A stretch of DNA of 63,194 nucleotides, the filler included, from Rhabdomonas costata (Eukaryota), in assembly GCA_019059605.1 (NCBI GenBank). It is 55 parts of 55 records of this genome, joined end to end, with 100 filler letters (N's around TTAATTAATTAA, not from the genome) between each part and the next. Parts side by side here need not be neighbours in the genome. Positions count along the whole stretch, not along the records: positions 10,364 to 11,415 come from JAHMHO010031303.1; positions 11,516 to 12,566 come from JAHMHO010031304.1; positions 12,667 to 13,717 come from JAHMHO010031305.1; 52 more parts are not named here. One strand, given 5' to 3'. The translations under genes and the position numbers were made by a program. This document shows, piece after piece, positions 1,152-57,327 of this stretch; the first letter of the stretch is position 1, and the number at the start of each line of letters is the position of its first letter. The notes under the pieces were generated by a model. That model was not told where the DNA came from, did no database searches, and saw nothing but the letters and a program-made list of their open reading frames with translations.

Positions 1152-3453
1152 AGGTGTTGTGGCACAGAGTGAGCTGAACTCATTTTTTTGGCTTCAAGGC
1201 AGTCATTCCGATTGGCCTCTTTTCTGGGATCCCCTGTCTCAGAATTGTCATTCCTTTTTTGAGGAGCAAGAAGTGCCTCACCGTGGCTCCTCAAAAGATC
1301 AGCGGAGATCGGTCTGTAAATGGTGAACAGCCGTGGAGACGAAGGAGCCTTCATGTGAACGGCCATTGAGATCGAGAGCTAACGTGGGCTTCAGCAAGCG
1401 GAGGCATGACAAGGGTCTGGTCGCAAAGCAGTAGCCATAAGCGGAACTCAGCTGGCACCTCTTTCCTCTCAAGTTCACGTGACTGAAGCCGTCGCGGGAG
1501 AGTTGTCCCAGGTTTTCCTTCACGTAGGTCAACGTTAATGGAAACCGCTGCTTACTTTGTTGGGTCAGATGTGACGGCGGTTCACACGTTTGCGTGACAC
1601 GTTTTTAAAGACCGTCCCTCCAATGCGGAGCGCGCACGCACGCAGGCAGGATATTGGGTGGTTCCTTTTTCAGGGCGGCCAACCTCTCGGCCCTCCACTC
1701 GCTCTGGTGGAGAGGCGCTGTGCACCTCTCGCTCCATCTTCGCTCAGCTGCCTGCCCGCAGCCCGCCCCCGTCACCGGGTACGTGTGTGTATGTCTGTGA
1801 TCCTGCGTGGGAGGGTCGGCAAGGCATCACAGTCACTGTAATGACTTCGGACTTCGGCTCCTGTATGAAACCATAGCAGGGTGCAATTTTGCGGGGAAAA
1901 GGGCAACCATATTTTGGTTACTCTGAGCTCTGTCGTCAATCCCAATGGATTGGAGCCATCAGCCACCTCACTTCGTACATATCGTATGGGGCTGTTCTTC
2001 AACATTTGAAGCTGAGCAGATTTGCTCTACACTGAAAAATGCCCTCAAGAAATGAAATACCTTTTTTATCTCCTTGTGGCGCACTCTTGCAGTTATATAG
2101 GCTGGATTATATCCTTGGCTGGATCGTTAAGTAGTTCCCGTGGGTTTGTGGATGGGGTTGTGCAGGGGCGGTTTCCCCCGTCATCGCGTACCCGACCGAG
2201 CTNNNNNNNNNNNNNNNNNNNNNNNNNNNNNNNNNNNNNNNNNNNNTTAATTAATTAANNNNNNNNNNNNNNNNNNNNNNNNNNNNNNNNNNNNNNNNNN
2301 NNTGTGTGTGGGACGGTGGGCCAGCCAACCGAAAGCCGGGTCCACCACTCGGGCCATCGATCATTATCGCTGCAGGGGAAGGGGAGCAGCAATGAGAAAT
2401 TTGGGCTGCGGCAGAGACAGAGAGCTGAGATGAGAGCAAAAGACACTTGGGGGAGCCAACTGTCAAATGCCTGGTGCTCTTTTGCTTAAGGAGAACATGG
2501 TGAGAAGGCAGGGGAAAGGTATAAATCAAAGGGGAACAGGAGGACGCGAGTGTTAAGGAGCTGCCGAAGAACGAGAGAGAGAAAGAGAAGCTTGCAACAC
2601 GGCTGCCAGGGTCATGCAGGAATGCCGCTTCGTGGAGAAAGTGAAACATTTTGAAGCAATTTGCCTGGGAATCTGTTCTTAATGAGTTGGTTGTACCTCG
2701 AAAGTGATCGGGAAGTGAATAGATGCTGTGTTCAGTCTGCAGGGTCAGTTTTGTGCTTAAATGCTGCGAACTATACGCCCTATCAGAGCAGTTGTGCTCT
2801 CATTCGCCATGAAAATGAAAAAACATCATGTATGCTCCCATGGCGCGATGGGCGCGCGTGTCAACGGACAGGATAGGAGGGGTGACAGGATGCACTATCA
2901 AAATTTGTCAACGCACGTGCCCAAAACGGTAGAACGTTCGGGGAGTCCCCCAAAACCTCCAGGCCTCCAACTCCCCAAGCTCACTAAAGGGTTAACAGAC
3001 TTTTGCCTTGATTGCGCCTATCATCGCCGATCACCAGCTACTCCTAGGTCACGTCAAGCTCTGCCACACTCCTGCATTCACTAAGAGCAGGACAAGAAAC
3101 AAAAACCTAAATGTGGAGGCATCAAAGAATGCACGGCCGCCGCAGCGAACAAGACTGATTGAGTAGCGAGGTAGCAATCAAGTACAGTATGTACAATTTG
3201 CGGGATTAAAAAAAGCAAACAGAATGCCTTCTCCGCGCCAGCAGAAGTTCAATGCAGTTCATGTTCATTTGGTTACCCCCCCCCACCGCTCCCTAACCGA
3301 CGCAACACGGAGTGCAACAGGGTGACAGACACAAACCACCAAACACACAACACNNNNNNNNNNNNNNNNNNNNNNNNNNNNNNNNNNNNNNNNNNNNTTA
3401 ATTAATTAANNNNNNNNNNNNNNNNNNNNNNNNNNNNNNNNNNNNNNNNNNNN

Positions 3454-8092: not shown

Positions 8093-8189
8093 ATTTTTGG
8101 TCCTTGATGACAGCGAATCTCACATGAATCTCTCATGATGACACCATGAGAGATTCATGTACGATTCGCTGTCATCAAGGACCAAAAAT
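8093..8189. repeat. 97-bp near-perfect palindrome (45-bp arms, 2 mismatches, 7-nt loop)
   Basis: ATTTTTGGTCCTTGATGACAGCGAATC..ACATGAATCTCTCATG / CATGAGAGATTCATGT..GATTCGCTGTCATCAAGGACCAAAAAT. Confidence 0.9.
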
Positions 8190-9293: not shown

Positions 9294-10363
9294 GTGGTGC
9301 TTGCTCATTGCGTTGATGTTGGTGGAAGTTGTGGTTGTGACAGGGGTGATAGATGTAGTAGTGGTTGGAGATGCGGAGAATCTCTCCGGGTGAGGCTTGG
9401 TTTGGACTAGGGCATGGGCCTGAGGCTTCATCAAGTAGTCGCCAGACCTCGGAAGCTGTGTTTGCCATGACGCAAACCGAAAATCAGTTCCTGCATTCCA
9501 TCCTTAATTGATTGTATGGATGAGGTCATCCCTCCCTCCTGAAGCGACATTTTGCAATGCAACAAAAAATAACCCGCAAAACCATAAAAATGCCCCAACC
9601 CCACCCGAACGAGTAATTTTTAACAAATAATTTTTAATTTTCAAAACGAAATGTACCACAATGCGCGACGCCTGGAAGAAGGGCAGCGACATTTCCATTG
9701 CTCGGGTGGGACCCACGCAGTTGTGCATCAGCTCCATCGGAAAAATAAAAAGGGAAACGCACAAAACAAGTTCTGGAAACGCAGATTACACAGAATATGA
9801 GCAAAGATGAGAAATCAATTCACAATGCAGAGAGCTACTTCCCGTTTCTTCGTCTTCTTTCTTCTTCGTCTCCACAACTTCACTCAATACGAACCAAGTC
9901 AGACTGATAACACAGGATGCATTCTGAACGCGGAGCAGAATCCTTGCAAAGGATCGCCATTCATAACGGAGAAGCATGTGTTTCCTGGGCAGTGCTTTTG
10001 ATGGTCCTTCTTTCAAGACCGGGACTGGACCAAATTGGGTAATTGAAAAGATCCCATTTAGAGCTCATAACACGACCAAAAGACAGGGGAAATGAGACAC
10101 AGTCATCTTCCACTGCAGTGTCCGTTTTTACTGAATTTGAAAAGATCAGTCAGTCATCTTCCTAGAGCATTTCGCATCTCAACCCCCCACCCCTCGAACA
10201 AAAGTAAGCGGTCAAAATCCAGCACGCCTTCGGGGCCCCAGGTTCATTGCACAACCCCAAACCNNNNNNNNNNNNNNNNNNNNNNNNNNNNNNNNNNNNN
10301 NNNNNNNTTAATTAATTAANNNNNNNNNNNNNNNNNNNNNNNNNNNNNNNNNNNNNNNNNNNN

Positions 10364-10693
10364 GCCCCATTGTGTAACAACATTGACTACAGGGGGAAAG
10401 GGGGGCACGTATGCTTTGCACAGCAACCGCAAAAGTGCCCAAATCGGCTCTTTCCAGCTAAAAAGGCCAAAGTTAGGGGTAAAATGATGGTTTTTAGGCC
10501 AAAATTGATGAAAAAAGAAGCAAAGTACAAGTACACGCGGATGAGTGGGGTGGCGACGACACAAAAAAATTACTTGGGGGTAAGCCTCGTCTTGGGGAGG
10601 GTAAGAGTGGTTCCGGTGACGGAGAAGCAAAAAGATCTTGAATTATTGACCCTTTTTTACTGTGTGATAGGGCATTTTAAAATCGAGCTTTGT
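10364..10693. mobile_element. Terminal segment of an interspersed repeat (putative DNA-transposon end), copy 1
   Basis: Aligns by eye with 17281-17562 (shared AGTGGGGTGG, AAAAAATTACTT.GGGGTAA, TTTTTTACTGTGTGAT.GGGC, AATCGAGCTTTGT). Similarity stops abruptly after AATCGAGCTTTGT in both copies. Confidence 0.75.
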
Positions 10694-10707
10694 CTATTAT
10701 TATTACA

Positions 10708-11363
10708 ATGTGTGGAATTTTTATTTACAATGGTACAATTCATACAATTGAATCATTACAAAAACATTTTAATAAAATACAAAAAAGAGGTCCTGATCAT
10801 TCTAAAATAATGAATGTAGCATCTGATTTAATTTTTGGTTTTCATCGTCTTGCTATTGTTGATATTTCTGACAAAGGAAATCAGCCATTTTTTATAAATG
10901 GTATTTATTTAGTAGCAAATGGAGAAATTTATAATCATCTTGAATTAAAACAAGAAAATGATTTTATTACTTATTCACATAGTGATTGTGAAATTATTAT
11001 TCATATGTATCTTAAATATGGAATCGAATATACAATTAATCAATTAGATGGTGTATTTGCTTTTGCTTTATATGATACATTAACAGATCGAATTTGTGTT
11101 GCTCGAGATCCATATGGTGTAAGACCTTTATTTGTTGGAACTTCTGATAATTTCGAAGTTTTTTACGGCTCAGAGCTAAAAGGCATTAATGATTTGTGTC
11201 AATATGTACGACAATTTAAACCAGGATGCTATACAAATTTTGTAAATGGTACTTTAGAAATAGAAGAAAAACGTTATTATGAATATATATATCCAACTTT
11301 AAAAATAAATGAAGAACAAATTTATTTTAAAATTAATGAACTTTTAACTGCATCTGTAAAAAA
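10708..11363 (+). CDS. asnB: Asparagine synthetase (glutamine-hydrolysing), N-terminal glutaminase domain; intronless, AT-rich, truncated by a fold-back artefact
   Basis: MCGIF start with Ntn Cys2, then RGPD, FHRLAIVD, GNQP, NGEIYNH, SDCE, LDGVFAF and ARDPYGVRPLF motifs. GC is roughly 25-30%. 11356-11415 is the reverse complement of 11107-11166. Confidence 0.95.
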
Positions 11364-13081
11364 CTTCGAAATTATCAGAAGTTCCAACAAATAAAGGTCT
11401 GACACCATATGGATCNNNNNNNNNNNNNNNNNNNNNNNNNNNNNNNNNNNNNNNNNNNNTTAATTAATTAANNNNNNNNNNNNNNNNNNNNNNNNNNNNN
11501 NNNNNNNNNNNNNNNTGTTTGGAAATTGATATTCAGCAATGCTGAATATCAATTTCCAAACAAGAAGGAGGCCGAAGGACCAAGGAAAAAAGCACACGGT
11601 GAACTGAAGCAACAATGTGCACACACACACACGACACCTGGGGACCTTCTCGCGCTTTCCCAATCCCTCCCTCACTGTACATCCCGCGATTGAGCGTGCT
11701 CCCTCCCATATACAGCGGCCCCAGGCGATAAAGCAACGCATAAAATCTGATTCTAAAAGAGAAAAAGAGAGAGAGCGCGCAAGCAGCTGACGAGAAGGTA
11801 GGGAGGCACGCAGAATTCCAGTGAAAGCAGGCTTCGCCGGATTACAAAGGGCAGGACATCAAAAGCGGACGAATCGAGAGAGCGAGAGGCACGGAGAGTT
11901 GACAGACATGTGGGCAGAAAGAAGTGAAAGAAACCACGAAGCAGCACGGCTCAAGGCACAACGGAGAGGCGCACTGCAGCCAGGCAAGCCCCACCGAAGA
12001 CAAGGGATGCGGGGGAAGGAGGGCACAGGGTACACCCAATTTCTCACGCGCTGAACTCCTCCCACTCTCTCTGTCTGTGAAATCTTTGAACGCCTGACGC
12101 TGGGTGATGACAGAGAAGGGAGGCAAGCGGAGCGAATGTAGGCGTAGAGCAGAAAGCACACGTGGAGGGCAGAGGACAACGTGAATGGGGTGCCGACAGA
12201 AAAAAGCCCTCCACGTATGGAGCACGACACTGTACAGACAGGACAATTAAAAAACTGGTCGGCAGGGACTCTGGAAGCAAGTGGCTGGCACAAAGCATCG
12301 TAGATGACGAATCGACTTATTCATGAGGCCACGTCAGCGCAAATCAGAGGAGCTCATATGATTAAAGGGATCAGAAGAACCAAATCAATAAAAAAAAGCT
12401 CCTCAAACAATGCGCACGGCGTTGCCCTCAAACAATCCTCAAACAATGCCCACAAAGGCGTCCTCCGTGAAGCCCAACCTTAGGGCTGGCTCCCCGCCCC
12501 ACACCACCGCCCCGTTAACTGCAAAAGCCACGGTGCCCCCCGTGGGGTCGTTAGGGTCACTGCGGTNNNNNNNNNNNNNNNNNNNNNNNNNNNNNNNNNN
12601 NNNNNNNNNNTTAATTAATTAANNNNNNNNNNNNNNNNNNNNNNNNNNNNNNNNNNNNNNNNNNNNGTTGTGGTTGCGAGTGTTATTATCCATTGTTCAT
12701 TGTATATTACCTCTATCAGAGAAATACCGTATATCTGAGAAATACTCGCATCTCATCGTTTGGTACCATTTCTCGTTGCCTTCCTTTGCCTCTTTTGGTC
12801 CTTTCGTCTATGTTATCGTAAATTTCTCAACGGCGTGCGCAAGAAGATTCAGCATTCCGTGTCATCACCCGTTCCAGGCCGAGAAGACTGAAAGTGGATC
12901 CTACCATTTGGAAATTACACGTGATGTGGATTGAGAGCGGAGCAGTGAAGATCGGCCTCGTTGGAACCCTTCAGCACCACAAGTAAAAGAAACTTGTAGG
13001 ACTCCTCTGCTTGTCACACGGGCAGGGGTTTGTTTTTGTGGGAAGGGAGCTGTCGTCTCTGAATGGAGAGAACAGGAGAAC

Positions 13082-17268: not shown

Positions 17269-17562
17269 GGGTGGGTTGTTCAGCAACCCCAAAAGGGTCC
17301 GATTTGGCTTTTGGGGGGCAAAAGGGGCCAAAATCAAGGCAAAAACGTGGTTTTGGCTTGAAATGGCCAAAAATGATGAAAAAATGAAGCAGCGCTCAAG
17401 TACTACGTGCGTAAGTGGGGTGGGGATGCCAGAAAAAATTACTTAGGGGTAAAACTCGTATGAGGGTGGGCAATGGGAGACTTGGCTATGGCATAGCTAA
17501 GAGAAAGCGAATTATCAGCCATTTTTTACTGTGTGATGGGGCTTTTTCGAATCGAGCTTTGT
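17269..17562. mobile_element. Terminal segment of the same interspersed repeat, copy 2
   Basis: Diverged homolog of about 10420-10693, ending in the identical AATCGAGCTTTGT and followed by an unrelated AT-rich flank (TAATAATTTG). Confidence 0.75.
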
Positions 17563-19570
17563 TAATAATTTGATTTATTAGGGTGATTTATTGTTTCTCG
17601 CTTTGCTCGCCGCGCTGTTTGCTTCTGTGCTTCGCATTTTTTTTCTGCTTGTAGCTGCTGAACGCTGAACACTTGCTATTGTTGAGGAGCGTTGCGAAGT
17701 GCACGTTTCGACGTTTCGCGGGATCTCTTCTCCCTGATCTTTGAACCGAAGCCACTTGTTTGGTTTCAATTTTGATTTTGATCATGGTATGAAAGACACA
17801 CCCATTGCCCCCCTACCCGCTCTGACCTTTGAAGCGCGGGTACCACAATCGCCCCGCCGAACGTCCCCATCAGCGCAGCACCGGCGCCAGTCCGGTGGGA
17901 GGGAGGGAAGTGGTGGGGTTCGGCGAAGAGGGGAGTGGCCGGAAGAGAAGAGTCGAAATTATCCGACTTCAGAAATGTAACAGGAGCGCGAAAAGTTGCC
18001 AACACTGGGAACCACAAAAATGGGCGCCCAGTATGGGTATCCTTATGGCGGCAGAAAACAAGCCCAAACCGCAATACAAAAAAAGTCAAAACTCGAAAGA
18101 AAAAATCCAAAGCGCGGGAGCAGACCTTTACCCAATTGCCCAATAAAGGTGGGGTGGGGGAACGGGAAAAACGTTTGTATGCAGAATGACACACTTCCCT
18201 CATCCGTTAGCTTCCCCAAAATCGTGTGCTCCCTTGATGGCGGGACTGGCAGTTTCTTGCCAAGGCTACTTGCACGCAGCTCTTTCACACTCACTTTCTT
18301 TTTTCGACCACCCACAAACNNNNNNNNNNNNNNNNNNNNNNNNNNNNNNNNNNNNNNNNNNNNTTAATTAATTAANNNNNNNNNNNNNNNNNNNNNNNNN
18401 NNNNNNNNNNNNNNNNNNNAAACACGAAGGCCGCACGGAGACACGAAAGAGAAAGAGGGCAAGGGGAGGGAATTCAGGACATCCCATATGTCCCATCGAG
18501 GACGGGGGTTTTGCAACCTCGTGCCCAAACAAATTTGCTTCGCTACCCTTTTTTTACACCTCAATTAGCCGGCAGCAGGAAACATGAAACCGAGGGCCAG
18601 GGGCGGGGGTATGGGGAGAGGGCGGTGCTCCATGGCAAGGCTGTCGTTTTCAGAGGTGCCCTTTTTCGCGAACGAGAAGTCGGGAAGCGTTTACCGCTGG
18701 GGAGGGATGGAGGCGCTTGTGAACAGCACACCCTACGTCCGCTGTCAGCGGGGTATGTCGTCTGTCCGCCTTGAGCAGTCTATGGGTGTAGGAGAGAGAA
18801 CGTGAACCCACAAGGGGGGAAAGAATTAGGGGGGACGGGATCAGAGCACGAGAGAACGACGCAAGGGAAGGGCTCGACCCGGGTGGACCCAACAAATAAA
18901 AACAATTGGAGAGATCGATCTGGTGCAAAGAAAGGTGCTGGCTTTACAAGGAGGAGTTCAAAGAATTTGGGGACGAAGTTTTCGGTCTGCTGAAGGGCGT
19001 CCTCCTTCGATGGGCTCCGCGAGACCAATAGTGTGGCAAAGCAAAAAAAACGCCGCGGCTGCAGAATGGGAAAGAGCGCCAAAAATCACGATATTGTGTA
19101 AATATATCGCTCATCTAAAGCCCTTTGTGATTTCCTCAATCCCACCTTACCACAATTAGGTCCGCGTCAGGTCAAAAGCGAGAGAGAACTCAGTCCGAGC
19201 CAAAATAAAATGCACGGAAAAATCCCCCTTTGAGGAACGAAAAAAGCATAGTTTTTAGACCCCCTTCTTTCCCGCTTTATAAGTCCGAAAACGTATCAAT
19301 GTAAAGGGATCAAAATTCTCTCTTTTGAGGTGCCGCGGAAATACATGCGGGTTGCTATGACCACGGAGGGATTTTGTCACAGACACAAGTTTTCCTTAGC
19401 GCAAAGGAAATCAACCCAAGCCGGTGGCAGCACCGACGCGATCGGAGCCTTCAAAAGATAACAAAAAAAANNNNNNNNNNNNNNNNNNNNNNNNNNNNNN
19501 NNNNNNNNNNNNNNTTAATTAATTAANNNNNNNNNNNNNNNNNNNNNNNNNNNNNNNNNNNNNNNNNNNN

Positions 19571-23023: not shown

Positions 23024-24074
23024 CAAATCCTTTCCCGAACAATACCAGCAAACATCTTTTGTTCACGATGTGGGGGTTCGGCAACGAAAAATACAAAGCA
23101 CACAAGCATAGCGGGAAAGCAAATGGGAACAACAAATTATGGAGGAGCGAAAGAAATTCGATGACGGACGACCAACGGCAGACATTCCCGAAGTGGGTCC
23201 CACAGAAAATCGCAATTTTGAAGAAAAAAAGGAACACAAAAGCCCTGTCCTCTCGGTGCTTTACAACTATGCGTTTTGTTTCGTTTGCAGATGTGCTCTT
23301 TGTGCTTATTAGAATTGTGCCTCCTATCCTTTCCTCCTTCGCCGTTTCTAAAAGTATGACGACTTGCAAGGTTGAATTGCAGTGAACGAGCAAATTTCAT
23401 TCGATCTTGACAAATTTGAATTATTGCGTAGTGATGCGAAATTGTCATAAAAACGTTGATTTAGGTCCAAATTGGGCGTTGGCCTGGTTACAATTTATAC
23501 AGCGTAGGGCGAACGTAAGACCGAGAAAATGGGCGGTCGGATGGGCCTGGGCTGGGCACTTCCCACTGTACTGTGAGTCCTTTTTTGCTCCGCTTTCTTT
23601 TGAAAGGATTTTCTTACCTTACTTAAACCTTCACAAACAGCAACAGAAACCAGCAAAAAAACAGCAAAAAGAAGAAGATCACCTTCACCATCATGAACGG
23701 CATCAGGAAGAAACGCAACCAAAACGCAAAGAAGAGAGGAAAAACTACAACAAAAACGAAAAAAAAGAAGAAGAGGTTGAACGGAGCAGACATGTGATGG
23801 CAAGGGCAGAACAAATTAAAGCAAACCTCGCCCTTCTCCAGCTTGAGCAGCTTGGCTCGGACTGTGAAGGTTGTGGTTTCCCCCTCTTCTCCCGTTTCAA
23901 CAGTCACAGGGGCAAACAGCGGAACAGCATTGGCCTGCAAAAGACATCAAATCCTTTCCCGAACAATACCAGCAAACATCTTTTGTTCACGATGTGGGGG
24001 TTCGGCAACGAAAAATACAAAGCACACAAGCATAGCGGGAAAGCAAATGGGAACAACAAATTATGGAGGAGCGA
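23024..24074. repeat. Contig with an exact 127-bp terminal direct repeat: collapsed 924-bp tandem unit or circle
   Basis: 23024-23150 is identical to 23948-24074. Confidence 0.9.
23827..23934 (-). CDS. Exon encoding the N-terminal part of a Ran-binding (RanBP1-type) domain
   Basis: ANAVPLFAPVTVETGEEGETTTFTVRAKLLKLEKGE (TGEE.E...f..RAKL motif); bounded by CAG and GT; phase 0-0. Confidence 0.85.
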
Positions 24075-27000
24075 NNNNNNNNNNNNNNNNNNNNNNNNNN
24101 NNNNNNNNNNNNNNNNNNTTAATTAATTAANNNNNNNNNNNNNNNNNNNNNNNNNNNNNNNNNNNNNNNNNNNNGTTGTTGGGGCCAAATCGAGTGCGGA
24201 CTCTGGCCGGGCAATGTTGTTGGAATTTTGACCATTTTTTTTGTCCTAGGCAAGAGCGCGTATACGTTCATCCGCACCTGTGCATTGATGGCGAAGCTCT
24301 TTGGGGTCGTTCATAATTTGTAGCGTTTCGTCGGTCGCAGCCCCCCTCGAAGAGGTTGCTGCTCTGCCGCGCAGGTGATGGTAGTCCACTCGTTCGACAT
24401 GTTTGTCCGTATAGATACGGACCGGTTCCCTGACTTTGCGGAAGGAATGAGGCGAAGGGTGGCAATGGAGAAGCTCAGCCTCGGGGACGTTGCAGAGGTC
24501 ATCGTCCTATCTCGGTGTGTGCACGAAAACATCCGCTCTGTTTGCGGCATGTCTTGAATCATTGTAGCTTCAGCTGATACTCTCAATAGGGAGCTCACCT
24601 TTCGCATACAATGGCACATTGTATGCACTGTGCACCGAGCGCAAGTTGGACGCGGAATAAATCTCCTCCGGGGGCTGTGCAGAGCGATTACCCAGGCACC
24701 AGGTGGAATCCATGCTTCATGAAACCTTACCCAAAATTCGGACCGTTCGAATCAAAGTTTTTCGCCCGCTGAATGATTGATTTCCTCACTGATGTTACAT
24801 ACATGTTGTTCAAATATAGGAACAAACAAACTTTATGCATAAATCTTATAACGAGGGCCCCTTCCCGCTACACTCCCGTCAGCCTCCCAACAATGTTGCT
24901 CTGCGCTTTTTCGCCAAGTCGGAATTAGGTGCAGTTTCTTTCTGCTTTTTAAGGAAAAAAGTCACAGACACCAGCCAACTTCAAGAGAGCATCAGGACGG
25001 CTCACCCGGAAAGCCTTTGTCCCTGCCAGTCTAAGAAATAATTTCCGACTGAGTGGCGAGGATGATGTCAAGATTCACTTGACCCCCCGGTCGGGTTCCG
25101 CTGTCACAGCTCCTGCGGTAGCACCAACGCCTCCCAGGGCGCCGCCGCTGCGGTGGAACGTGGGGGGCGAAGCATCATGCGATTCGTGGAGTGTCTTCCC
25201 TCGGAGCACAGATACCCCACCCCCCNNNNNNNNNNNNNNNNNNNNNNNNNNNNNNNNNNNNNNNNNNNNTTAATTAATTAANNNNNNNNNNNNNNNNNNN
25301 NNNNNNNNNNNNNNNNNNNNNNNNNGTGTTTGTGTTGCGAAAAAAACCACAAGGCTAGCCTAGTTCTTAGACGGAATTCGCGAAAAAAATGTGTTGAATG
25401 GCCCCGGGTCAGCACCCAAAAGAAGAAAACAAAGCGAAGACATACAGCATGTACAAAAGCTTCTTGGCTGTGGTTTTCTTTGCATTTTGATTGCGCGTTC
25501 GACCTCTGTTCAGGAGAGAGTAATTCAACCATTGCAGTAAGGGACAGGGGCAGCGAATGCTTCTTTTCCTTCTGGCCCTGGGAGTTCGCTCTGAAGGTCC
25601 CATGACCCTTCGCGATTCAGATACCACTGGAAAAGTCTCAAATACCACCGGAAACGTCAGAAATGTCAGATGCGGGCTTGGCAGGGTTCGCAGTGCGCTC
25701 ATCCTTCTCAGGAGCATCAAAGAGACGCAGTACAAAGTCGGCAACGGCAAGTACCGAAAGCCTTTTCAGGACCCAAGCGGTGTTCTGGAATTTAAAGCGA
25801 AGGTATTGCCAGCTGGGCACCGCAGTCCAAAAGGAATGGAGGGCCATCTTTCAAAGCGAAGAAATATCCAAACAAAAACCCTAAAGCAGCGGGAAAACGC
25901 ATGGTAATTGGGATTGTGTACGCTGTTTCGCTGCGTTATCAAGGTGTGCAACGGAAAGAGATCCCCCCCCCACCTTTCTGCAGTATGTCATTGGTTTCGA
26001 GTTTCCACACACGCAAGCGCGCGCTGAGACAACAAAACAACAAACCTGCACATGACGGCAACAGTGAAGAACGTCAGGCGCAGTCGATTTCTGTCCCCGG
26101 TCCACACCAAAAACACCGTTTATCGTTTAAGGACCCCACAATATGGAGTCGAAATTGCACGATTCTCCCAGCTGCGCAACGTATGGTGTCTGGACTGCTG
26201 GACTGTCCATTCATAAGGAAAGCGAGAGCTGGATGCTGGGAGACTGGAAGGGAAACCTCCTCAATAATTCACCCCATTCCTCGTTCAGAACTGCGATGCT
26301 TCCGCGCGTTCGAAAAAGAGACTACACAAGACCAATCAGATTCCAAGCTCCCTCAGAGACACCACACCCAACACANNNNNNNNNNNNNNNNNNNNNNNNN
26401 NNNNNNNNNNNNNNNNNNNTTAATTAATTAANNNNNNNNNNNNNNNNNNNNNNNNNNNNNNNNNNNNNNNNNNNNGTTGGGGGTGGGGAGCGAACGCAGG
26501 TATGTGTTTGGTTGCGTGCAGAATCGAAGGGTGCTTGAGCAATAATTCTGCACGCAACCAAACACATACCTGCGTTCGCTCCCCACGTCTAATCCCAGAG
26601 GATAAAACTCAGCAAGAAAACCCCATCCCAAACCTCTTTGGGGGCTTCCCACAGGAGCTCCGGAGCAAGGAGGCTGGGCTTCAATTGTCATCACAGGATT
26701 CTCGTTCAATGCGGGAGAAATTGTGTGCTGTTGCTCTAAACCTGGAAGCAGGCCAGCAATAACCTGCAAGAGAGAAGTGGAAGGAAAGGAAATAGGGAAA
26801 TAGGGATGCGAATACCGAATACCGAATACCGTTTAGTGAGTTATTACCAAAACAATTCACATCGATAACCACTGACGCTGAAAAGGCCAACCCAGGAAAA
26901 TTTCCTGCAAAAATAATCATTGACGTGATCAACCTAGAGAAAGACAATAATACACAGAAACACAATAACGTGCTTTCGATGCATGTCTCCATTGTCTCGA

Positions 27001-30920: not shown

Positions 30921-31308
30921 GAAGCAGAGACGACAAGAGAACTACAGACACAGCAAGTAACCACCAACATCATGACATCCNNNNNNNNNNNNNNNNNNNN
31001 NNNNNNNNNNNNNNNNNNNNNNNNTTAATTAATTAANNNNNNNNNNNNNNNNNNNNNNNNNNNNNNNNNNNNNNNNNNNNGTTTTGTGTGCCTACACCGC
31101 ACCACGGCTCATCACCATCGTCACCATAGGCTGGGGGGCCAAGGCATGATGCTGCCGTGGTGCGGTGTAGGCATACAAAAAGTCCACTAAACGTGTGCGG
31201 GGGGGGGGGTTCTGGAAGGGCAATTCAGATCACAGGGGCGAGGAGAAAAGCTGATCCTCGTTGACATGTGCCCGCACGGGAGAGTGAGGTAATGTGGCGA
31301 CGAGAAAC

Positions 31309-35453: not shown

Positions 35454-36846
35454 CTGCAAAAATGAAACATTGCAGAAAAATTTGAATTTGTGCACTGTTT
35501 CGTTCTGGATTAAAACAACAAAGAATACCCTCTGCAGAAGGGACAAGCTTCGCGGTTGGGCTTGAACTCCGTCGCTCCCTCACANNNNNNNNNNNNNNNN
35601 NNNNNNNNNNNNNNNNNNNNNNNNNNNNTTAATTAATTAANNNNNNNNNNNNNNNNNNNNNNNNNNNNNNNNNNNNNNNNNNNNGGGTTGTGTGGCGAAA
35701 AGATGAAGAAGGCGTGGTCTGGGAGAGAGCAGAAGGGCCTAAAGCAGCGTAAGCGGATGATGAGTGTGGCGCAGTGGCGCATGCTCCCATCGAAGTCCTC
35801 GAAAACAAACTTGCAACCCTCCCCTCCACTTGAGTCTTGAGGGTGACTGACGTAAACAAAATCATCAGATCCGTATCCAATCACTAGATGGAGTGCTTTT
35901 TGCACAGCAGTGCTTCACAAGAATTTTATCCTTGAATGTCGAAAGGATGGCTGTGTTCAATTCTTAATTCGGTTGGACTTGTGCGCGTGTACTTGGAGAC
36001 CCGACACTGGGGACCCCAAAAGGAATGAAAAACAAACCCCCGAAAAATAATTCATAAACGAAAATAATAGTTCATAAATCAGCCCCCATCTGAGGATTGA
36101 CAGGCGTCACAATAAACACAGGTGAATGCCCACTCCGCGTCACCCCCAACCTCTCGCTGACCTCAGGTAAACACGCATGCAAATAAGTGAATGGGAAATT
36201 GTGCAAAGTGTAAGTTAAAATGTGCAACTGAAGGAAGCCGAAGGAATGATCCATAGACTATCCGTCATTTAGATCACAGCCTTCTCCTGCTTCATTTCAA
36301 CCCCCCCCAGGCACACATGCGCAATATAAATTTTCAATTCCGTTTAGCCCCTCTCGGACTGTTGCGTTGAAGTACACCTAACGTTTATTACCGATGACGT
36401 ATTCCTCTATATCCTTTTTTTGTTTTAGGGCCTTCCGCCTTTTAGGTGGCAGAGGGACTTTAGGGTGGTGAGTGGTGAGGACTATCATTGCTTATATTCT
36501 TTTGAAAAGCATATTTGAATCTATTTTTTCTAAATTCTCTCAGTCTCTCGCCATCGGGGTGCTGCTGTATCCTCAGCTTCGTTTTTTTGCCCAGAAACGA
36601 TGTTTATTTTCCGTGACCGATACCATGCTGCCTTCATAAAAGAAATCAAATCACTCTGTTGATCGCTTTAATTTCAACTTGAACTGAATTCCTGCTCACA
36701 GCGGAAAATAAACATCGTTTCTGGGCACAAAAACCNNNNNNNNNNNNNNNNNNNNNNNNNNNNNNNNNNNNNNNNNNNNTTAATTAATTAANNNNNNNNN
36801 NNNNNNNNNNNNNNNNNNNNNNNNNNNNNNNNNNNGGGTGTGGGGT

Positions 36847-37854
36847 GGAAGAAGGAAGCGGCGCGGTTAGGATCGTGGTTATGCCCCTCGGCTACGGTCG
36901 GCGGGTCGGGCGAAGGCCACAGCTCAGAAGAGGCCGCCACCAATGGGTTCCGGCCTGGCGCACAAAGCGAGGGGGAATGGAAGTAAGTGTGTCTGGGTAT
37001 TGGGGGTCTTTCAGCAGCACCCTGTCCTCCTCTGCGGGCCTCGGCACGAAATGTAAGGGGCTAGGACCTCCTTGCCAAGGCTCAAATCCACACCCTATTC
37101 GCTGGGTGACTTCCGAACATGGGCCCCCCGGGGACCGGAGCCGGAGCCGGGCCGGAGGCTCTGGCACGGTTGTCGCAACTTGAGTAAAACTCGCCGATTG
37201 GGACCCATCCTCGGTGAGATGGTAGCACTCCTGAGTTGAGTACTGTCAGCTTCGCAGCCACTGGCTGCATCTCCACGCCAATCGTAGCACCTTAAAGGGT
37301 CCATTTTGGACCCTCCTAAGGCCTTTTCGACTTAGGGCCTGCATACTGAGCCTATGCTTTCGGTCAAACCGGCTTAGTTAGCTACGGTAAAGATATACGT
37401 CTTTCTGGCGTCTGGCAGAATGATTTGGTTTGTAGGTGCCGATGCTTGTAGGTTCAGGCCATTTAAGGCCCAATATTGGGCTAGCTGGCAGGCAAAAGAA
37501 GACTTTAAATTAGTTAGCACCCCAGCGCCCCGAGTGAGTCCGCATCTGACTTGTATGTGTGTATTCAAATACTTTCCTCTCTTACACAACCTTTCGGCCG
37601 CAAACATTATCATATCGCTGGGTCACAATCATAACCCCTTCGCGGCCCGGAAGTGCCGTTTACCCCAAACAAAAGTACAGACCTGAGAGCCGCGGGGAAC
37701 CCGACAGCAGGACCAGGGAGCTTCCGGTGTAGACGCTAGGGAAGAAGGAAGCGGCGCGGTTAGGATCGTGGTTATGCCCCTCGGCTACGGTCGGCGGGTC
37801 GGGCGAAGGCCACAGCTCAGAAGAGGCCGCCACCAATGGGTTCCGGCCTGGCGC
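36847..37854. repeat. 115-bp exact direct repeats 893 bp apart (tandem unit or LTR-like element)
   Basis: 36847-36961 is identical to 37740-37854; both copies are truncated by contig-end artefacts. Confidence 0.9.
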
Positions 37855-38506
37855 GTAGCCGAGGGGCATAACCACCACCCNNNNNNNNNNNNNNNNNNNN
37901 NNNNNNNNNNNNNNNNNNNNNNNNTTAATTAATTAANNNNNNNNNNNNNNNNNNNNNNNNNNNNNNNNNNNNNNNNNNNNTGTGGGGGGGGTGGGTGGTG
38001 TATGTATGTCATTTCGGTATCTGTGCTTCTGTGTGTTGAGTTCTCGTGCCTGGGTGATCTGTGGTATTGGTTTGCTAATTTGTGCTTCCGGGAGTTCCGC
38101 AGTGATGTCTCCCTTCTTGTCTTCTTTGGGATCATTGTGAGGGGAAATGGAGACCGCGTTGGTGGGTTCCTCACTTTGCTCGTTTGCGTTTGCGGTTGCC
38201 GTTTTTTTAAAGCTCGCAGTGACCAAGGGCAGGGGTGCAACGATCCAAAGCGAGCTCTCAAAAAAGAAGCCCCCGTTACAAAAAGGTTTTGGTTTTTTGA
38301 ATGTACAGCAGGCGTCCCGAAACGCTGCGTGGCCAGCACCTGAGGTCAAGGTTTCTTAACCTTTGGGCCTCGGCCGGTTGTAATGCCTTGGCGGCTCTTT
38401 TCGCATCCCTTTTGGGTCGCTCCTTCCCCCACACAGCCAAAGGGTTACAGCGCCCAAGAGACCAGCGTCACAGTCCCCCGAAAGCTTCACACCAACGATA
38501 TAAAAC

Positions 38507-48413: not shown

Positions 48414-48580
48414 GACCGGTTGGTGTTGTGGCAGAAAAGTAGAATTTCAGAAGCAGCTGTGTCCGACCCATTTTGTCTCTTGCATTGGCAGAAAGCCCTC
48501 TGAAGACCAATGCAATACCAGGCGAATATATATGCTTCTGAAATTCTACTTTTCTGCCACTTTTTTTTCGACCAACGGTT
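48414..48580. repeat. Nested inverted-repeat (fold-back, MITE-like) element
   Basis: Perfect 28-bp arms at 48428-48455 and 48533-48560, an inner TTGCATTGG/CCAATGCAA stem, and an outer imperfect ACCGgTTGGT/ACCAACGGT stem. Confidence 0.85.
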
Positions 48581-49612
48581 CTGCTTCTTTGGGGGATATT
48601 GGCGGGGGTTCTTTCTACAGTGCTGGTCGAGCGGTGGGTGGAACTTCACGATGGTCTGGCCTCCTCATACCTCCGCAAGCTGAGCTGCCTGGGCCTCCTG
48701 AAACTCCTTCCGGTCACGCTCTCTTTGTTATTGCAGGGATTGAATTAGAATACATGCACCAATCTCTGACCGACAAAAAGCATAATCGAGAAATGAAAAA
48801 TGAATTGGATGGGGACTGACTGCTTTGTGCACCAGGCATTTGAACGCTATTTGCTGTTTGCTTCGTTGCCATTGCTGTTGCCGGTTTGTTGCACTGGCTG
48901 CTAAAGGCTCTTATTTTTGAAAGCGAACCGATCCATAGTCTATTTGGATCAATGGATGTGGGCCATTGCACCCCCCACCTCCAAAAAAAAGAGAATATGT
49001 ATCGCTCTGCTGTCTTGCAGACCTCGCACGTCTGGCGACTGAGCACCAGGCATTCACGTTGTCCTTTCACACGGCTCGCTTCAGTCGCCATTTAAATTAA
49101 CGATTGACAAATCGATTTCAAAAGGTGCCATCGTTGCGGAAAAATGGACCTTCTCACGCTCTGCAAATCCTGTTGTTTTTTTTACAGTAATCATTGACTA
49201 CCATAATGAGTTTGGAAGTACTTCACCACCAAAACGCTTCATCTGGGAGAGTCATCTGGGGTATCCCGCCACCGACGGAGAGAGAAGTTTGATCTCTGTT
49301 TGAGGGAAAAAATGTTGCTTGAAATTAGGGAAACCCTCAAAAAATAGTGATTTGGATGGAATACCAAAAATCCAGTTCCCCCCCCACCCNNNNNNNNNNN
49401 NNNNNNNNNNNNNNNNNNNNNNNNNNNNNNNNNTTAATTAATTAANNNNNNNNNNNNNNNNNNNNNNNNNNNNNNNNNNNNNNNNNNNNGGTGGGTTGTG
49501 AAGGCAGCAAACCCAGAACCATAAGAACTCCCTTTCTTCTGAGCAAACGCCTTCAAAGGAAAGGGAGTTCTTATGGTTCTGGGTTTGCTGCCTTCACAAC
49601 CCAAGCCTCAAA

Positions 49613-50540
49613 GCATGTGACGGGCTCACCGATGATATGATCCGGGCCACCATCGAGAACGCCAAGGGCACCCGCTCCGCTTTGTTCGTGCCGGAGCAGT
49701 GCTTTGAGCTGCTCGTGAGGCAGCAGCTGCCGAAGCTCGAGGATCCCTGCCAGCGGTGCGGCGACAAGGTTTTGGACGAGCTGCAGCGGATGTGCAAGTC
49801 GAGCGAGAAGGAGCTGGGACGTTTCCCTAAGCTGCGGTTTCCACCCCCTTCCGTCCCGTCCCGTCCTGTACGTATTCCTGTAATTGCAATTGTGATTTCT
49901 CCGAAACCCTGCCCATTCTCCAAATATCAATGACCAACAGGGCTTCCGCTGATGCCCATCTCGACATTTCCACAGATGGCCATTACGAAATGCACTGTAC
50001 GGTGGCCAGGAAGCAAAGGCTCAAGGAGGGATTCTGCCCACCAGCTTACATAGCAGCGGCTCACTGAAACGGGGTAAGTGTAAAATGCCCTTCCTGGCAC
50101 TGAGCATGAAAGCACGGATTATCGTCTCCATGAAGCAGTAGCAGGTACAGAGTTCTCGGGCGCAATCACAAAAAACAGCAACCAGCGATGTGCCTGGCCA
50201 TGGTCCTTACACATCGGTGCAGGAGGCGGGTTGCCCCTCCCAAGCCAGTCTCACCCCAGATGAGCCAGCGACCCGGTTCGATGTTTGAACCCCGACTCGG
50301 TGGACTAACGCCCGAGGGACGATGCCATCCTCCAAACTACCATTAGAACTTTTCTTCGAACCGAAGTCCCCTTTGCTGCGCCGGAAAGGGCAGGTGATCA
50401 TTATACAGTCCCGCATCAACCTCCTGCCTATTCAGGGACCGCGTTGCGGAGGAGGTCTCTCGCCTGCTGCGCTCCTTCCTGGTCCCCCTGCGGGATTTCG
50501 TGCGCAACCTGGTGCAGATCGAGCTGGCGTACAACACCAC
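49613..50540 (+). CDS. Dynamin-related protein (Vps1/Dnm1-like), middle domain; exons about 49613-49836 and 50436-50540
   Basis: DGLTDDMIRATIENAKGTRSALFVPEQCFELLVRQQLPKLEDPCQRC...RFPKLR|DRVAEEVSRLLRSFLVPLRDFVRNLVQIELAY; GT-AG intron 49837-50435. Confidence 0.92.
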
Positions 50541-54560: not shown

Positions 54561-56625
54561 CTGTGGTCGACATTCGGGTTCCGTTTGTATCCATTGTTCT
54601 TGTTTATGTTGTCTGAAAAAAGTCTCGCTTTTTGTCAACAAGTTAACAAGCTGCAGATGCGGGAAATTGGATGTGCATCCTGATTGCTACCACTTCTTCT
54701 TCACTACGGTGTACGATGCTTCGGCCCCCGTCGCGAGAGCACCCAAAACCACGCCAACTTGCAATCTAGGGTGCCTTTGCGACAAACGCCAAGTACTTGA
54801 TCTCGCAGATAGAAGGTACAGGACGATCCATTATGTCCTCCAGGACAGAGTATTGATAGAGTGCAAGAGTTGGTCTTCCGCTGCAATCTCAAACAAAAAG
54901 TGCCACAAGTGTCCACTAGTCAGTTTCTTGTTTCAACTTTCTCTACGTCACCGTGCTACTGGGAGGGACCTCAGTAAACAACTGGAATGCGTTAATAAGT
55001 TATAAATTCCAATTTTTGAAATTTATGAATCTTACTAACAGGAAAACTTTTCCTCTACCACTCCCAAAGATTGTTCAAACTGACCGCTACGTGAGAGTGA
55101 TCCCCACCCAGGCGCTGCTTCACAACCTGCAACACCCCACNNNNNNNNNNNNNNNNNNNNNNNNNNNNNNNNNNNNNNNNNNNNTTAATTAATTAANNNN
55201 NNNNNNNNNNNNNNNNNNNNNNNNNNNNNNNNNNNNNNNNTGTTGTTCGCTGCGCATTGCGGGAAAAGTTGAACCAGTTTATTTTTGTTGGCACTACTTC
55301 ATCTCCTGCCTAGGTGCTTCACTGGTTGTTGCCCTTTTATCATGAAAAGGCCCCGTTTAGCGTCCAACATTGCATGGGGTGGGGGGGGCGTAAAGGAAGT
55401 TATGCAAAAAAATACTAATCCGTTTATTAGGTCGATTTTTTTTTGGATCCTCTGAACTCACATGACAACAGTGCTCACAGGGTTTCGATCAAGCAGGGGT
55501 GTGTGTGTGTATTGTTTAACAATTTCGATTTTTTCGACTTTCGATTTTGATATGAGTTGGGAGGTTGAGACGCTTCTCCGTTGAGCACCACTGATAGTTA
55601 CCATTGCACCCCGGTCACTTTTTTCCGGTGCAAACAGGTGTCAGGTGCCTCTAAACGCACTTAGGCTTGAGGTTAGACACACACTAAAGGGGTGGGGGTG
55701 GGTGTTTTGACCACCAACCCCCTCTCATACACGATAGCCCTACCCTGACGCGAACTGTGTTAAAACAGCTAATCACGCCCGAGGTGGCAGTGGCTCAAAC
55801 CAAAACAAACATAAGAAGCACACTGCGCATACACAAGTGTGATGGCTGCGGCGAAGGTGCCTCGCAACCATCGCAACCAAGTCACAGTGGAGGAAGAAGA
55901 GCACTGAAGAGGGTACTGCTGTTTCAACAGCCTGCCAGTGCGCTGCAGAAATGTTTTTGACAGGCTGGTGGTGCTACCGCCTTCGGTGGTCAGCGCAGAA
56001 ATCGACATGTATCGAGCATGAGATTTGAACCTTTGATCATTTCAACCTTTTGAACTAACCAAGCATAGCAAAGGTTCCCCCACGCAAACCTCGATAGAAC
56101 GCACTGACGCAGGTCACCCAACTGCTCTGCCGCGGATGCTTGTTTTCCTTGCCACCCTCGTTGTTTGCGAAGGAGTACAGCCATTCTCCTGCGTGGCATA
56201 CCATATCCGTATCTTGGAATTCCACTTCCTTTTGATCTTCCCCAAAAAGACCCTACAATTCAACATCATGCAGTCTGTATGACCCACAAACNNNNNNNNN
56301 NNNNNNNNNNNNNNNNNNNNNNNNNNNNNNNNNNNTTAATTAATTAANNNNNNNNNNNNNNNNNNNNNNNNNNNNNNNNNNNNNNNNNNNNTTGTTTTGG
56401 TACAAGGAAATGTGCTTGTGCACAATGGAATGAGTTTGTTTGGTTTGGGAGTGCCAGTGGCACGGCAGCTTGAGCGGGCTGTGGAGGCCGGGGCGGTGTC
56501 TGGGGTTACAACTACGGAGGTCAGGTTGAAGGTATACCTCAACACTCTCTTATGGAGCGCTGGCGTAATATTGAATTTATCAAAGAATTTGCAAGACAAA
56601 ACTCGCTGAAGGGCAGGCGACATAC

Positions 56626-56885
56626 ATCTCACTGTAGCTCAGCAGGTCGCTCAGGTGCAGGGGATCCTCCTCATGGTCCGTGCCGATCTTCTCAAAGCCT
56701 CCACTGCTCTGCCGCGACGGGCGGGCCAGCATGTAGTCGTCATCACCGCCCATAAACACCAGAGGCCGCTTGTGCATCAGGCGCTCCACGAGGTCATCTG
56801 GCTTCATCGTGCGGTAGAAGGTCTTCTCGTACTCGGAGCCGTGGCTTCGCTTGACCTCCAGGAATTTACTCAACAGCCCCCGGAC
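56626..56885 (-). CDS. Exon of a MavL-like/DUF4804 protein (putative ADP-ribose-binding macro-type fold)
   Basis: FLEVKRSHGSEYEKTFY...RLMHKRPLVFMGGDDDYML...GGFEKIGTDHEEDPLHLSDLLSYSEM matches FL..Kr..Gs..Ek..Y, kRPl.F....D.y.L, gfe.iGt..E..pl.l.d.lSYdEm. Confidence 0.8.
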
Positions 56886-57327
56886 CTTCTCTCTGTGCCC
56901 ACAGAGAGGTAGAAGGAGGAGGGAGGCCACACTTCGGCACCAAATCAATGACACTGGATAACAAAGGTATCGGTTGCTCTGCATACACATCCCTGCCTCA
57001 CAAGCCACACAAAACCGACGAACACGACTCAGTGCCTTATCTGACAAATTGTGACATAATTTATTCACGACAGCCGCTCACGCATGCGATGAAAAGGTCC
57101 GGTTCTGAAGCCGTTTCCTTGGCTTAATTGAAAGAGAGGAGCGAACACTCGAGCACACACACATACACGCACACAGGCCAGACCACACCACACAAAATTC
57201 TACTTCTGCTTCTTTCAGATGTTCAGTTTAAAACAATAGATTTTCTCCACATAGAAACCATACACACCGAACCCAACTGTTCAGCTGGATCCTGAGAAGA
57301 ATATGGATACTCACTCAGCACTGTACG

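What the first reader, a model, noticed from the sequence alone, without database searches (positions are those of the whole stretch)
10364..11415. Giant-virus-like asparagine synthetase abutting the exact end of a host repeat
Seen: an intronless asnB at roughly 25-30% GC, the opposite of the GC3-rich spliced host genes. Its ATG lies 14 bp (CTATTATTATTACA) after AATCGAGCTTTGT, the terminus defined independently by the repeat copy ending at 17562. Known: many Imitervirales carry AT-rich asnB genes, and from memory GIEYTINQLDGVFAF and ARDPYGVRPL resemble them. Inference: either endogenous giant-virus DNA colonised by a host transposon, or a host transposon inside an infecting virus. A random amplification chimera is unlikely to break exactly at the element end. 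The frame is intact up to the artefact, suggesting recent acquisition.
Basis: partly seen in the sequence, partly recalled or inferred. Interest (0 to 1): 0.8.

Follow-up and report, generated by a model that had tools for sequence, protein, structure and literature searches.

The report
Giant-virus-like asnB fragment, doubtful junction
A 1-kb scrap of amplified DNA from a euglenid protist carries the front part of an asparagine synthetase gene that looks like those of giant viruses, but its join to host-like DNA cannot be told apart from an amplification artefact.

Summary
The window is 55 separate ~1051-bp contigs joined by N/TTAATTAATTAA linkers. The finding is one whole contig, 10364-11415. 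The sequence facts hold. A host-like segment (10364-10693, GC 0.45) is followed by 14 nt and then an open, intronless asnB 5' part (10708 to about 11362; GC 0.25, GC3 0.065). The last 60 nt are a reverse-complement foldback of 11107-11166.

A giant-virus origin is moderately supported:
- The best relatives are IMG/VR giant-virus contigs at 49-54% identity. One carries a major capsid gene and VLTF3 beside asnB.
- The maximum-likelihood tree places it with them, at 82/87 support.
- GC3 matches them and lies below all 80 bacterial relatives.
- A sister position to Myxococcota AsnB is not rejected (p-AU 0.34).

The integration claim is not supported. Only two repeat copies exist in the window, so the "exact element end" is simply where similarity stops, which a chimera would also produce. 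40 of 55 contigs carry amplification-primer footprints and 9 of 55 have foldbacks. Reads and the whole assembly were not available.

The most likely reading is viral DNA present in the amplified sample and joined to host DNA in vitro.

The parts
10264..10363 (.). Linker (44 N + TTAATTAATTAA + 44 N) separating this contig from the previous one. It is not biological sequence.
10364..10693 (+). Host-like segment, GC 0.452. Positions 10421-10701 match 17281-17570 at 70% identity, as a repeat family with 2 copies in the window. It has conserved blocks, matches no known RNA family and has no convincing ORF.
10681..10693 (+). AATCGAGCTTTGT, the last block shared with the other copy (17550-17562). Similarity between the two copies ends here.
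10694..10707 (+). 14-nt AT-rich spacer CTATTATTATTACA between the composition switch and the ATG. It has no Shine-Dalgarno-like sequence and no primer footprint.
10708..11362 (+). 5' part (about 218 codons) of an intronless asnB, covering the class-II (Ntn) glutamine amidotransferase domain that starts MCGI. GC 0.253, GC3 0.065. The synthetase domain is missing because the contig breaks off.
11107..11166 (+). Source arm of the foldback, lying inside the ORF.
11356..11415 (-). Foldback artefact. It is the reverse complement of 11107-11166 with 1 mismatch, overlaps the native reading by the microhomology GTAAAAA (11356-11362), and creates the false ORF tail NFEIIRSSNK*.
17281..17562 (+). Second copy of the repeat, in a separate contig (17269-18319) that starts with a G/T-only primer footprint. 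Downstream of it lie about 30 AT-rich nt and then GC-rich sequence.

Best explanation
The contig is a three-part composite. Part (i) is a copy of a host-like repeat. Part (ii) is the first ~40% of a very AT-rich asparagine synthetase B gene from an unsampled giant virus (Nucleocytoviricota, of the asnB-bearing mimivirid kind). Part (iii) is a snap-back copy of its own sequence.

The viral DNA was physically present in the sample that was whole-genome amplified. It could have come from a virus in or on the sorted cells, or elsewhere in the culture. During amplification a growing strand switched template twice. One switch was onto its own complementary strand at the microhomology GTAAAAA; this one is shown. 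The other was between host DNA and viral DNA in an AT-rich stretch just upstream of the asnB start codon; this one is inferred.

The gene fragment itself encodes an apparently functional glutaminase domain: an N-terminal Cys nucleophile, with the invariant R47, N71, E73 and D93 present. As assembled it is truncated and cannot make asparagine.
For: Viral origin:
- 43 of 61 IMG/VR candidate stretches encode relatives at 36-54% identity.
- The best local scores are viral (L125 200 bits, L001 199, L002 197) against the best bacterial scores of 186 and 185.
- In L002 a major capsid gene (Capsid_N 4e-57) and VLTF3 (1.6e-38) lie on the same 4.4-kb contig as asnB. L003 has topoisomerase II and L006 an mRNA cap methyltransferase. 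The L007 and L009 records hold a capsid gene.
- In the careful tree (80 rows) the query joins L001 + P0003/5/7 at UFBoot 82 / SH-aLRT 87. The next clade of 22 rows holds 0 labelled bacteria.
- Grouping with the AT-rich Neomarinimicrobiota clade costs 31.7 lnL, p-AU 0.049.
- GC3 of 0.065 equals that of the 8 best viral relatives (0.05-0.093). 0 of 80 bacterial relatives have GC3 <= 0.10; their minimum is 0.147.
- asnB is in all 8 Mimiviridae genomes of Yutin 2013 (PMC3620924, Table 1 passage).

Artefact:
- The foldback at 11356-11415 has 1 mismatch in 60.
- 9 of 55 contigs have inverted self-matches, and 7 of these reach a contig end.
- 40 of 55 contigs start with >=8 G/T-only bases and 36 of 55 end with >=8 C/A-only bases, against 0 of 55 in the opposite sense.
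- The published draft of the species named was made from WGA-amplified sorted cells of a non-axenic culture (PMC8219788, passages).
Against: - Tree support is below the usual threshold, and no starred clade holds the query.
- A sister position to GC-rich Myxococcota AsnB is not rejected (dlnL 10.2, p-AU 0.34). The AU groups were named after the tree was seen.
- No labelled protist AsnB was in the tree.
- The best single hit, P0008 (52%, 212 bits), has no close IMG/VR relative.
- No other viral contig lies among the 54 others in the window.
- Nothing directly shows that the 10693/10694 join is artificial. It has no primer footprint, and microhomology there cannot be assessed without the true host locus.
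- Integrated giant-virus DNA invaded by transposons is known in another euglenid (PMC12455990, abstract).
Confidence: 0.5

Rival explanations
1. The join is real. Either giant-virus DNA is integrated in the euglenid genome with a host repeat or transposon inserted 14 bp upstream of asnB, or a host mobile element sits in the genome of an infecting virus.
For: - Host-like and viral sequence are contiguous in one contig, with an abrupt composition switch and no primer footprint at the join.
- Giant endogenous viral elements invaded by transposable elements exist in Euglena gracilis (PMC12455990, abstract).
- The viral DNA was in material from sorted cells, if the species' published protocol applies.
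Against: - The 'exact element end' rests on 2 copies only and is circular.
- The same contig has a proven template-switch artefact, and 9 of 55 contigs show the same class of artefact.
- Only one flank exists.
- The ORF is intact over about 218 codons and GC3 is 0.065, with no sign of erosion or amelioration.
- There is no match to the repeat block in IMG/VR.
- No R. costata (EukProt) protein appeared among the hits listed by the two word-index searches (the best 120 of each), where the best identities were 59% and 58%. There is therefore no sign of expression.
Confidence: 0.2
2. The asnB comes from an AT-rich bacterium in the non-axenic culture (a Marinimicrobia- or Bacteroidota-like organism, or an endosymbiont), or from another AT-rich cell. 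It was joined to host DNA by the same kind of chimera.
For: - Labelled bacterial AsnB reach 43-48% identity, only about 14 bits below the best viral hits.
- Bacterial clades interleave with viral ones in the tree.
- A sister position to Myxococcota is not rejected.
- The paper on the species reports bacterial DNA in one amplified sample.
Against: - The maximum-likelihood position is in a clade without labelled bacteria.
- The AT-rich bacterial clade is borderline rejected (p 0.049).
- The Myxococcota relatives have loci of about 52% GC, against 25% here.
- 0 of 80 bacterial relatives have GC3 as low as this gene.
- Human ASNS and E. coli AsnB score only 106 and 95 bits.
Confidence: 0.22
3. It is a host nuclear gene acquired from a virus and now used by the euglenid (a domesticated asnB).
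For: The frame is open and the catalytic residues are intact.
Against: - Composition is extreme relative to the host contigs (0.25 against about 0.5).
- No R. costata (EukProt) protein appeared among the listed hits, the best 120 of each.
- The exact ORF is not in the 15-billion-protein collection.
- No spliced-leader sequence lies nearby.
Confidence: 0.03

Closest known systems
[quoted passage not shown] 2013, PMC3620924)
   Same: - Intronless and very AT-rich, with the same domain start (MCGI...).
- The closest relatives sit beside capsid and VLTF3 genes on giant-virus contigs.
- GC3 matches those relatives.
   Different: - At most 54% identical to any IMG/VR copy and 59% to any protein searched.
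- Only the first ~218 codons are present.
- No viral hallmark gene lies on the same contig.
- The viral order was not determined here.
Giant endogenous viral elements of Euglena gracilis (Jivaji et al. 2025, PMC12455990)
   Same: - Euglenid host.
   Different: - Those elements are Asfuvirales, eroded, and shown on a chromosome-level assembly.
- Here there is one 0.66-kb intact fragment on an amplified 1-kb contig with an unverified join.
- 'Asparagine' does not occur in that paper's text.
Chimeric and snap-back molecules of whole-genome amplification (inverted template-switch chimeras; knowledge recalled, no paper read)
   Same: - Foldback with microhomology at 11356-11362.
- The same class of foldback occurs in 9 of 55 contigs.
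- Primer footprints lie at contig ends.
   Different: The host-virus join would be an intermolecular switch, which is the rarer kind. No footprint or demonstrable microhomology marks it.
Cellular asparagine synthetase B (E. coli AsnB 1CT9, human ASNS 6GQ3)
   Same: - Same fold and the same catalytic N-terminal Cys.
- The model has pLDDT 94.8.
   Different: They score only 95-106 bits, against 212-218 for the metagenomic and viral relatives.

Membership tests
Asparagine synthetase B (glutamine-hydrolysing), class-II/Ntn amidotransferase | N-terminal Cys nucleophile directly after the initiator Met | tested here: met
   The protein starts MCGIF. M1, C2, G3 and I4 are invariant in 20- and 40-row alignments.
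Asparagine synthetase B (glutamine-hydrolysing), class-II/Ntn amidotransferase | Glutamine amidotransferase type-2 domain with conserved glutamine-binding residues | tested here: met
   GATase_7 3.1e-29 and GATase_6 1.8e-26. R47, N71, E73 and D93 are invariant; their roles are recalled, not tested. The AF2 model has pLDDT 94.8.
Asparagine synthetase B (glutamine-hydrolysing), class-II/Ntn amidotransferase | C-terminal synthetase domain with PP-loop (SGGLDSS) | tested here: not met
   It is absent because the contig turns into a foldback at about 11362. Homologues continue KRLMSDRPIG...SGGLDSS. The NCBIfam score of 164.6 is below the full-length cut-off of 499. The gene is a fragment, not shown to be a whole enzyme.
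Nucleocytoviricota (giant-virus) gene | Phylogenetic placement inside a clade of genes from contigs with viral hallmark genes | tested here: inconclusive
   The maximum-likelihood position is with L001/L002-type sequences at 82/87, and 22 rows are free of bacteria at 40/79. AU test: Neomarinimicrobiota p 0.049, Myxococcota p 0.34.
Nucleocytoviricota (giant-virus) gene | Linkage to hallmark genes (capsid, PolB, A32, VLTF3) on the same molecule or in the same assembly | not testable with these tools
   The contig holds nothing else, and no whole genome is held. 0 of the 54 other contigs in the window hit 597 kb of giant-virus loci.
Nucleocytoviricota (giant-virus) gene | Composition like that of its viral relatives and unlike cellular relatives | tested here: met
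   GC3 is 0.065. The 8 best viral relatives have 0.05-0.093, and 17 of 51 IMG/VR copies are <=0.10. 0 of 80 bacterial copies are <=0.10.
Endogenous viral element / host-virus junction | Junction supported by independent molecules (reads with different ends, long reads, PCR on unamplified DNA) | not testable with these tools
Endogenous viral element / host-virus junction | Element terminus defined by three or more copies with unrelated flanks | tested here: not met
   There are 2 copies in the window. IMG/VR gave 0 hits and the metagenomes gave 0, plus 9 chance hits limited to the 20-nt pattern.
Whole-genome-amplification chimera | Assembly made of amplicons, with other template-switch artefacts in the same contig set | tested here: met
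   Primer-like footprints are at 40 of 55 starts and 36 of 55 ends, against 0 in the control sense. There are 9 of 55 inverted self-matches. This contig has a foldback.
Whole-genome-amplification chimera | The specific join 10693/10694 is present in one amplicon only | not testable with these tools
   It needs the raw reads.

The most novel reading that the evidence does not exclude
A heterotrophic euglenid (one search names Rhabdomonas costata for a host exon) carries, or is infected by, an unsampled mimivirid-type giant virus. The join at 10693/10694 is a true host-virus junction: young integrated viral DNA with a host repeat inserted in the promoter region of asnB. This would be the first asnB-bearing (Imitervirales-like) virus trace in euglenids. 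The only virus isolate from Discoba, as that paper puts it, is Bodo saltans virus, and the only euglenid GEVEs found by my one literature search are Asfuvirales (PMC12455990).
Probability: 0.2. Interest if true: 0.6.

Novelty: new member of a known kind. Interest (0 to 1): 0.3.

Why it matters
If the viral origin holds, this short fragment is a lead to a giant virus associated with a primary heterotrophic euglenid. That host group has no known virus isolate, and the one published case of endogenous giant-virus DNA in it comes from a different viral order.

If the join were real, it would date a very recent integration and show host repeats invading viral DNA.

As it stands, the main practical value is a caution. 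In assemblies made from amplified DNA, host-virus joins on 1-kb contigs cannot be read as integrations. An 'element end' defined by two copies is no evidence against a chimera.

Tried and rejected
- **Whole genome and reads.** No genome is held.
- **Earlier notes.** There are no earlier notes on this genome or on the repeat.
- **Repeat as an RNA gene.** The window gave 0 Rfam hits at gathering scores. The only hit at E<=10 on the two copies was a chance CRISPR-DR match at E 8.
- **Repeat as a spliced-leader gene, or the join as a trans-splice site.**
  - The species' published SL (PMC8219788) has 0 matches with <=3 mismatches.
  - Its 10-mer occurs near chance: 11 observed against 7 expected.
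  - The best gapped SL-likeness of the repeat (score 19) is equalled or beaten by 11 other contig strands. Rejected.
- **Mimivirus-type early promoter AAAATTGA (motif recalled).** It occurs 5 times against 4.2 expected. The copy at 10501 lies inside the host-like repeat. Rejected.
- **A third repeat copy.** Conserved blocks were scanned in IMG/VR (0 hits) and in metagenomes (0 hits, then 9 loci sharing only the 20-24-nt pattern). No use.
- **Names for the top hits.** 10 clusters carried no organism names.
- **Named viral relatives by fold.** BFVD gave only 32-34% identical AsnB fragments (an unnamed entry and Marseillevirus LCMAC202). This does not help assign the viral order.
- **Signature indels.** None separates viral from bacterial rows, apart from a 3-residue insertion in Neomarinimicrobiota that the query lacks.
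- **Supplements.** Supplements of the papers were not opened. Those of PMC8219788 and PMC12455990 may hold contamination screens or marker lists that bear on this.
Full report
**What the window is.** The 63,194 bases are 55 separate pieces of 1045-1056 bp, joined by 44 N + TTAATTAATTAA + 44 N. The finding's coordinates, 10364-11415, are exactly one such piece of 1052 bp. It is the only AT-rich piece, with GC 0.318. The other 54 range from 0.434 to 0.589.

The pieces are amplification products:
- 40 of 55 begin with at least 8 G/T-only bases.
- 36 of 55 end with at least 8 C/A-only bases, and 27 have both.
- 0 of 55 show the opposite sense.
- Several ends read ...CCAAACACACCC.... I read these as footprints of degenerate G/T primers from a whole-genome-amplification kit. 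That reading is recalled knowledge, not a tool result.

Nine of 55 pieces have inverted self-matches at E<1e-5, and seven of these reach within 10 nt of a contig end. Two pieces have exact direct end overlaps of 127 and 115 bp. The finding's contig has a primer footprint at neither end.

**The host.** No whole genome is held. Exons in other pieces encode a dynamin middle domain, a dynein-type AAA domain and a MavL-like domain.

The dynamin exon (49589-49837) is 100% identical to a EukProt protein, and the next hit is 58% identical. The exact look-up names that entry EP00906 Rhabdomonas costata.

The paper on that species (PMC8219788; I read passages found by term search) says:
- its draft genome was made from sorted or microdissected cells after whole-genome amplification;
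- the assembly has N50 1194 and GC 51.6%;
- bacterial DNA was still present in one of two samples;
- the words 'virus' and 'asparagine' do not occur in its main text.

I did not establish whether the window is that assembly. The footprints above show amplification independently.

**Check of the observation.**
- Reading the sequence confirms that AATCGAGCTTTGT ends at 10693 and at 17562, that CTATTATTATTACA fills 10694-10707, and that the ATG is at 10708.
- The left 330 nt have GC 0.452. The ORF has GC 0.253, with GC3 0.065.
- The ORF is open from 10708. It matches Pfam GATase_7 (3.1e-29) and GATase_6, and NCBIfam asparagine synthase B over model positions 1-221 of 554.
- It folds with pLDDT 94.8.
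- The catalytic start MCGI and the invariant R47, N71, E73 and D93 are present.
- Homologues continue ...AVKKRLMSDRPIG into the synthetase domain. The contig instead reads NFEIIRSSNK*.
- That tail arises because 11356-11415 is the reverse complement of 11107-11166 with one mismatch, overlapping the native sequence by GTAAAAA.

**Where the gene comes from: similarity.**
- No near-identical sequence exists in any collection searched. The best is 59% identity over 81% of the query (P0003) and 218 bits (P0002) among longer proteins.
- Among proteins of similar length the best is 58%.
- The best 50%-cluster representative is P0008, at 52% identity and 212 bits; the next scores 182 bits.
- The exact ORF is not in the 15-billion-protein collection.
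- In IMG/VR, 43 of 61 candidate stretches encode relatives at 36-54% identity. A second scan with P0012 added loci, three of which are 76-81% identical to P0012.
- Locally, the best viral loci score 195-200 bits (L125, L001, L002, L124, L126). The best labelled bacterial loci score 186 and 185 bits (Bradymonadia and Myxococcota MAGs).
- In the bacterial and archaeal genome collection, 590 of 600 candidate stretches were relatives. The best 80 were kept, at 36-48% identity.
- Human ASNS scores 106 bits and E. coli AsnB 95 bits.

**Where the gene comes from: the relatives are true giant viruses.**
- L002 (54% identity) has a major capsid protein gene and VLTF3 on the same 4.4-kb contig.
- L003 has topoisomerase II and L006 an mRNA cap methyltransferase.
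- The records of L007 and L009 each hold a capsid gene (three further handles were not held).
[quoted passage not shown] 2013 (PMC3620924, Table 1 passage).

**Trees.**
- *Quick LG+G4 tree.* It had 109 rows: all 43 first IMG/VR loci, the 40 best of 80 bacterial loci, 25 metagenome proteins and the query. It left the query in a polytomy with no well-supported clade.
- *Careful LG+C20 PMSF tree.* It had 80 rows and 237 columns: 35 of 51 IMG/VR loci, 23 of 80 bacterial loci and 21 database proteins. I dropped long-branch rows L030, L032, L035/36, L039, L041 and L043, near-duplicates, and lower-scoring bacteria. It puts the query with L001 + P0003/P0005/P0007 at UFBoot 82 / SH-aLRT 87. That group sits inside a 22-row group with 8 IMG/VR rows and no labelled bacterium, supported only 40/79.
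- *AU tests.* Holding the query with the nine AT-rich Neomarinimicrobiota rows costs 31.7 lnL (p 0.049). Holding it with the three Myxococcota rows costs 10.2 lnL and is not rejected (p 0.34). I named both groups after seeing the tree.
- No labelled protist AsnB was available for either tree.

**Composition adds an independent line.** The query's GC3 of 0.065 matches the eight best viral relatives (0.05-0.093). Of the 51 IMG/VR copies, 17 are at or below 0.10. None of the 80 bacterial copies is; their minimum is 0.147, and the Myxococcota loci are about 52% GC.

I put the giant-virus origin at roughly three in four.

**The join to host-like DNA.** This does not hold.
- The window has only two copies, 70% identical over 292 nt.
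- With two copies, similarity must stop at or before the place where one of them switches to unrelated sequence. A chimera at 10693/10694 would produce the same picture even if the element continues beyond 17562.
- I found no third copy. A conserved block has 0 matches in IMG/VR and 0 in the metagenome collection. A second block gave 9 metagenome loci that share only the 20-24-nt pattern.
- After the shared motif both copies run into AT-rich sequence. That would offer microhomology for a template switch, but this cannot be shown without the true host locus.

Points against taking the join at face value:
- The same contig has one demonstrable microhomology-mediated template switch.
- That class of artefact is seen in 9 of 55 contigs.
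- Only one flank exists.

Points in favour of a real join:
- There is no primer footprint at the join.
- Giant endogenous viral elements invaded by transposable elements are known in Euglena gracilis. They belong to Asfuvirales (PMC12455990; abstract and passages).

The intact frame and the unameliorated GC3 fit free viral DNA at least as well as a very recent integration. No R. costata (EukProt) protein appeared among the hits listed (the best 120 of each search), so there is no sign of expression.

**Other ideas tested and dropped.**
- The repeat is not a recognisable RNA gene.
- Its resemblance to the species' spliced leader is no better than that of other contigs.
- The Mimivirus-type promoter octamer is at chance frequency.

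**Verdict.**
- The 'giant-virus-like' label is moderately supported.
- The 'exact end of a host repeat' argument is invalid, and integration remains untested.
- The most likely history is that DNA of an unsampled asnB-bearing giant virus was present with the euglenid cells and was joined to host DNA during amplification (about 0.5).
- A true junction has about 0.2, and a non-viral AT-rich source about 0.2.
- The decisive tests are read-level support across 10693/10694, PCR on unamplified DNA, and a screen of the full assembly for viral markers. None of these could be run here.

Noticed in passing
all 55 contigs of the window, e.g. 2303-2312, 3344-3353, 60998-61007, 62030-62047: 40 of 55 contigs start with >=8 G/T-only bases and 36 of 55 end with >=8 C/A-only bases, against 0 in the opposite sense. 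Several ends read CCAAACACACCC. These look like degenerate-primer footprints left untrimmed in the assembly.
   Followed up: partly
8093-8189, 11516-11562, 26483-26586, 31082-31180, 36581-36734, 48428-48560, 49492-49603, 60998-61213: Eight further contigs carry inverted self-matches (snap-back palindromes), and most of them touch a contig end. In 11516-11562 the palindrome includes the primer-like end itself.
   Followed up: partly
23024-24074 and 36836-37880: Two contigs have exact direct overlaps between their ends: 127 bp (1-127 = 925-1051) and 115 bp (12-126 = 905-1019). These could be small circles, tandem repeats or an assembler k-mer effect.
   Followed up: no
55689-55722: An internal G/T-only run of 21 nt is directly followed by a C/A-only run of 13 nt. 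This is possibly an internal primer-primer joint, i.e. two amplicons fused in one contig.
   Followed up: no
56580-57077 (-): An exon-like ORF matches the MavL-like ADP-ribosylhydrolase domain (PF16062, 3.3e-21), a domain named after a Legionella effector, here in a euglenid-like contig.
   Followed up: no
10421-10693 and 17281-17562: The two repeat copies are 70% identical overall but share near-perfect blocks: GGCCAAAAWTGATGAAAAAA, AAAAAATTACTTRGGGGTAA, TTTTTTACTGTGTGATRGGGC and AATCGAGCTTTGT. This pattern suggests constraint rather than neutral decay. No Rfam family matches.
   Followed up: partly
L002:1-3725 and L001/L002 asnB: In the closest IMG/VR relative, asnB lies within 3.8 kb of the major capsid and VLTF3 genes. 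asnB may therefore sit in a conserved core block in that viral lineage.
   Followed up: no
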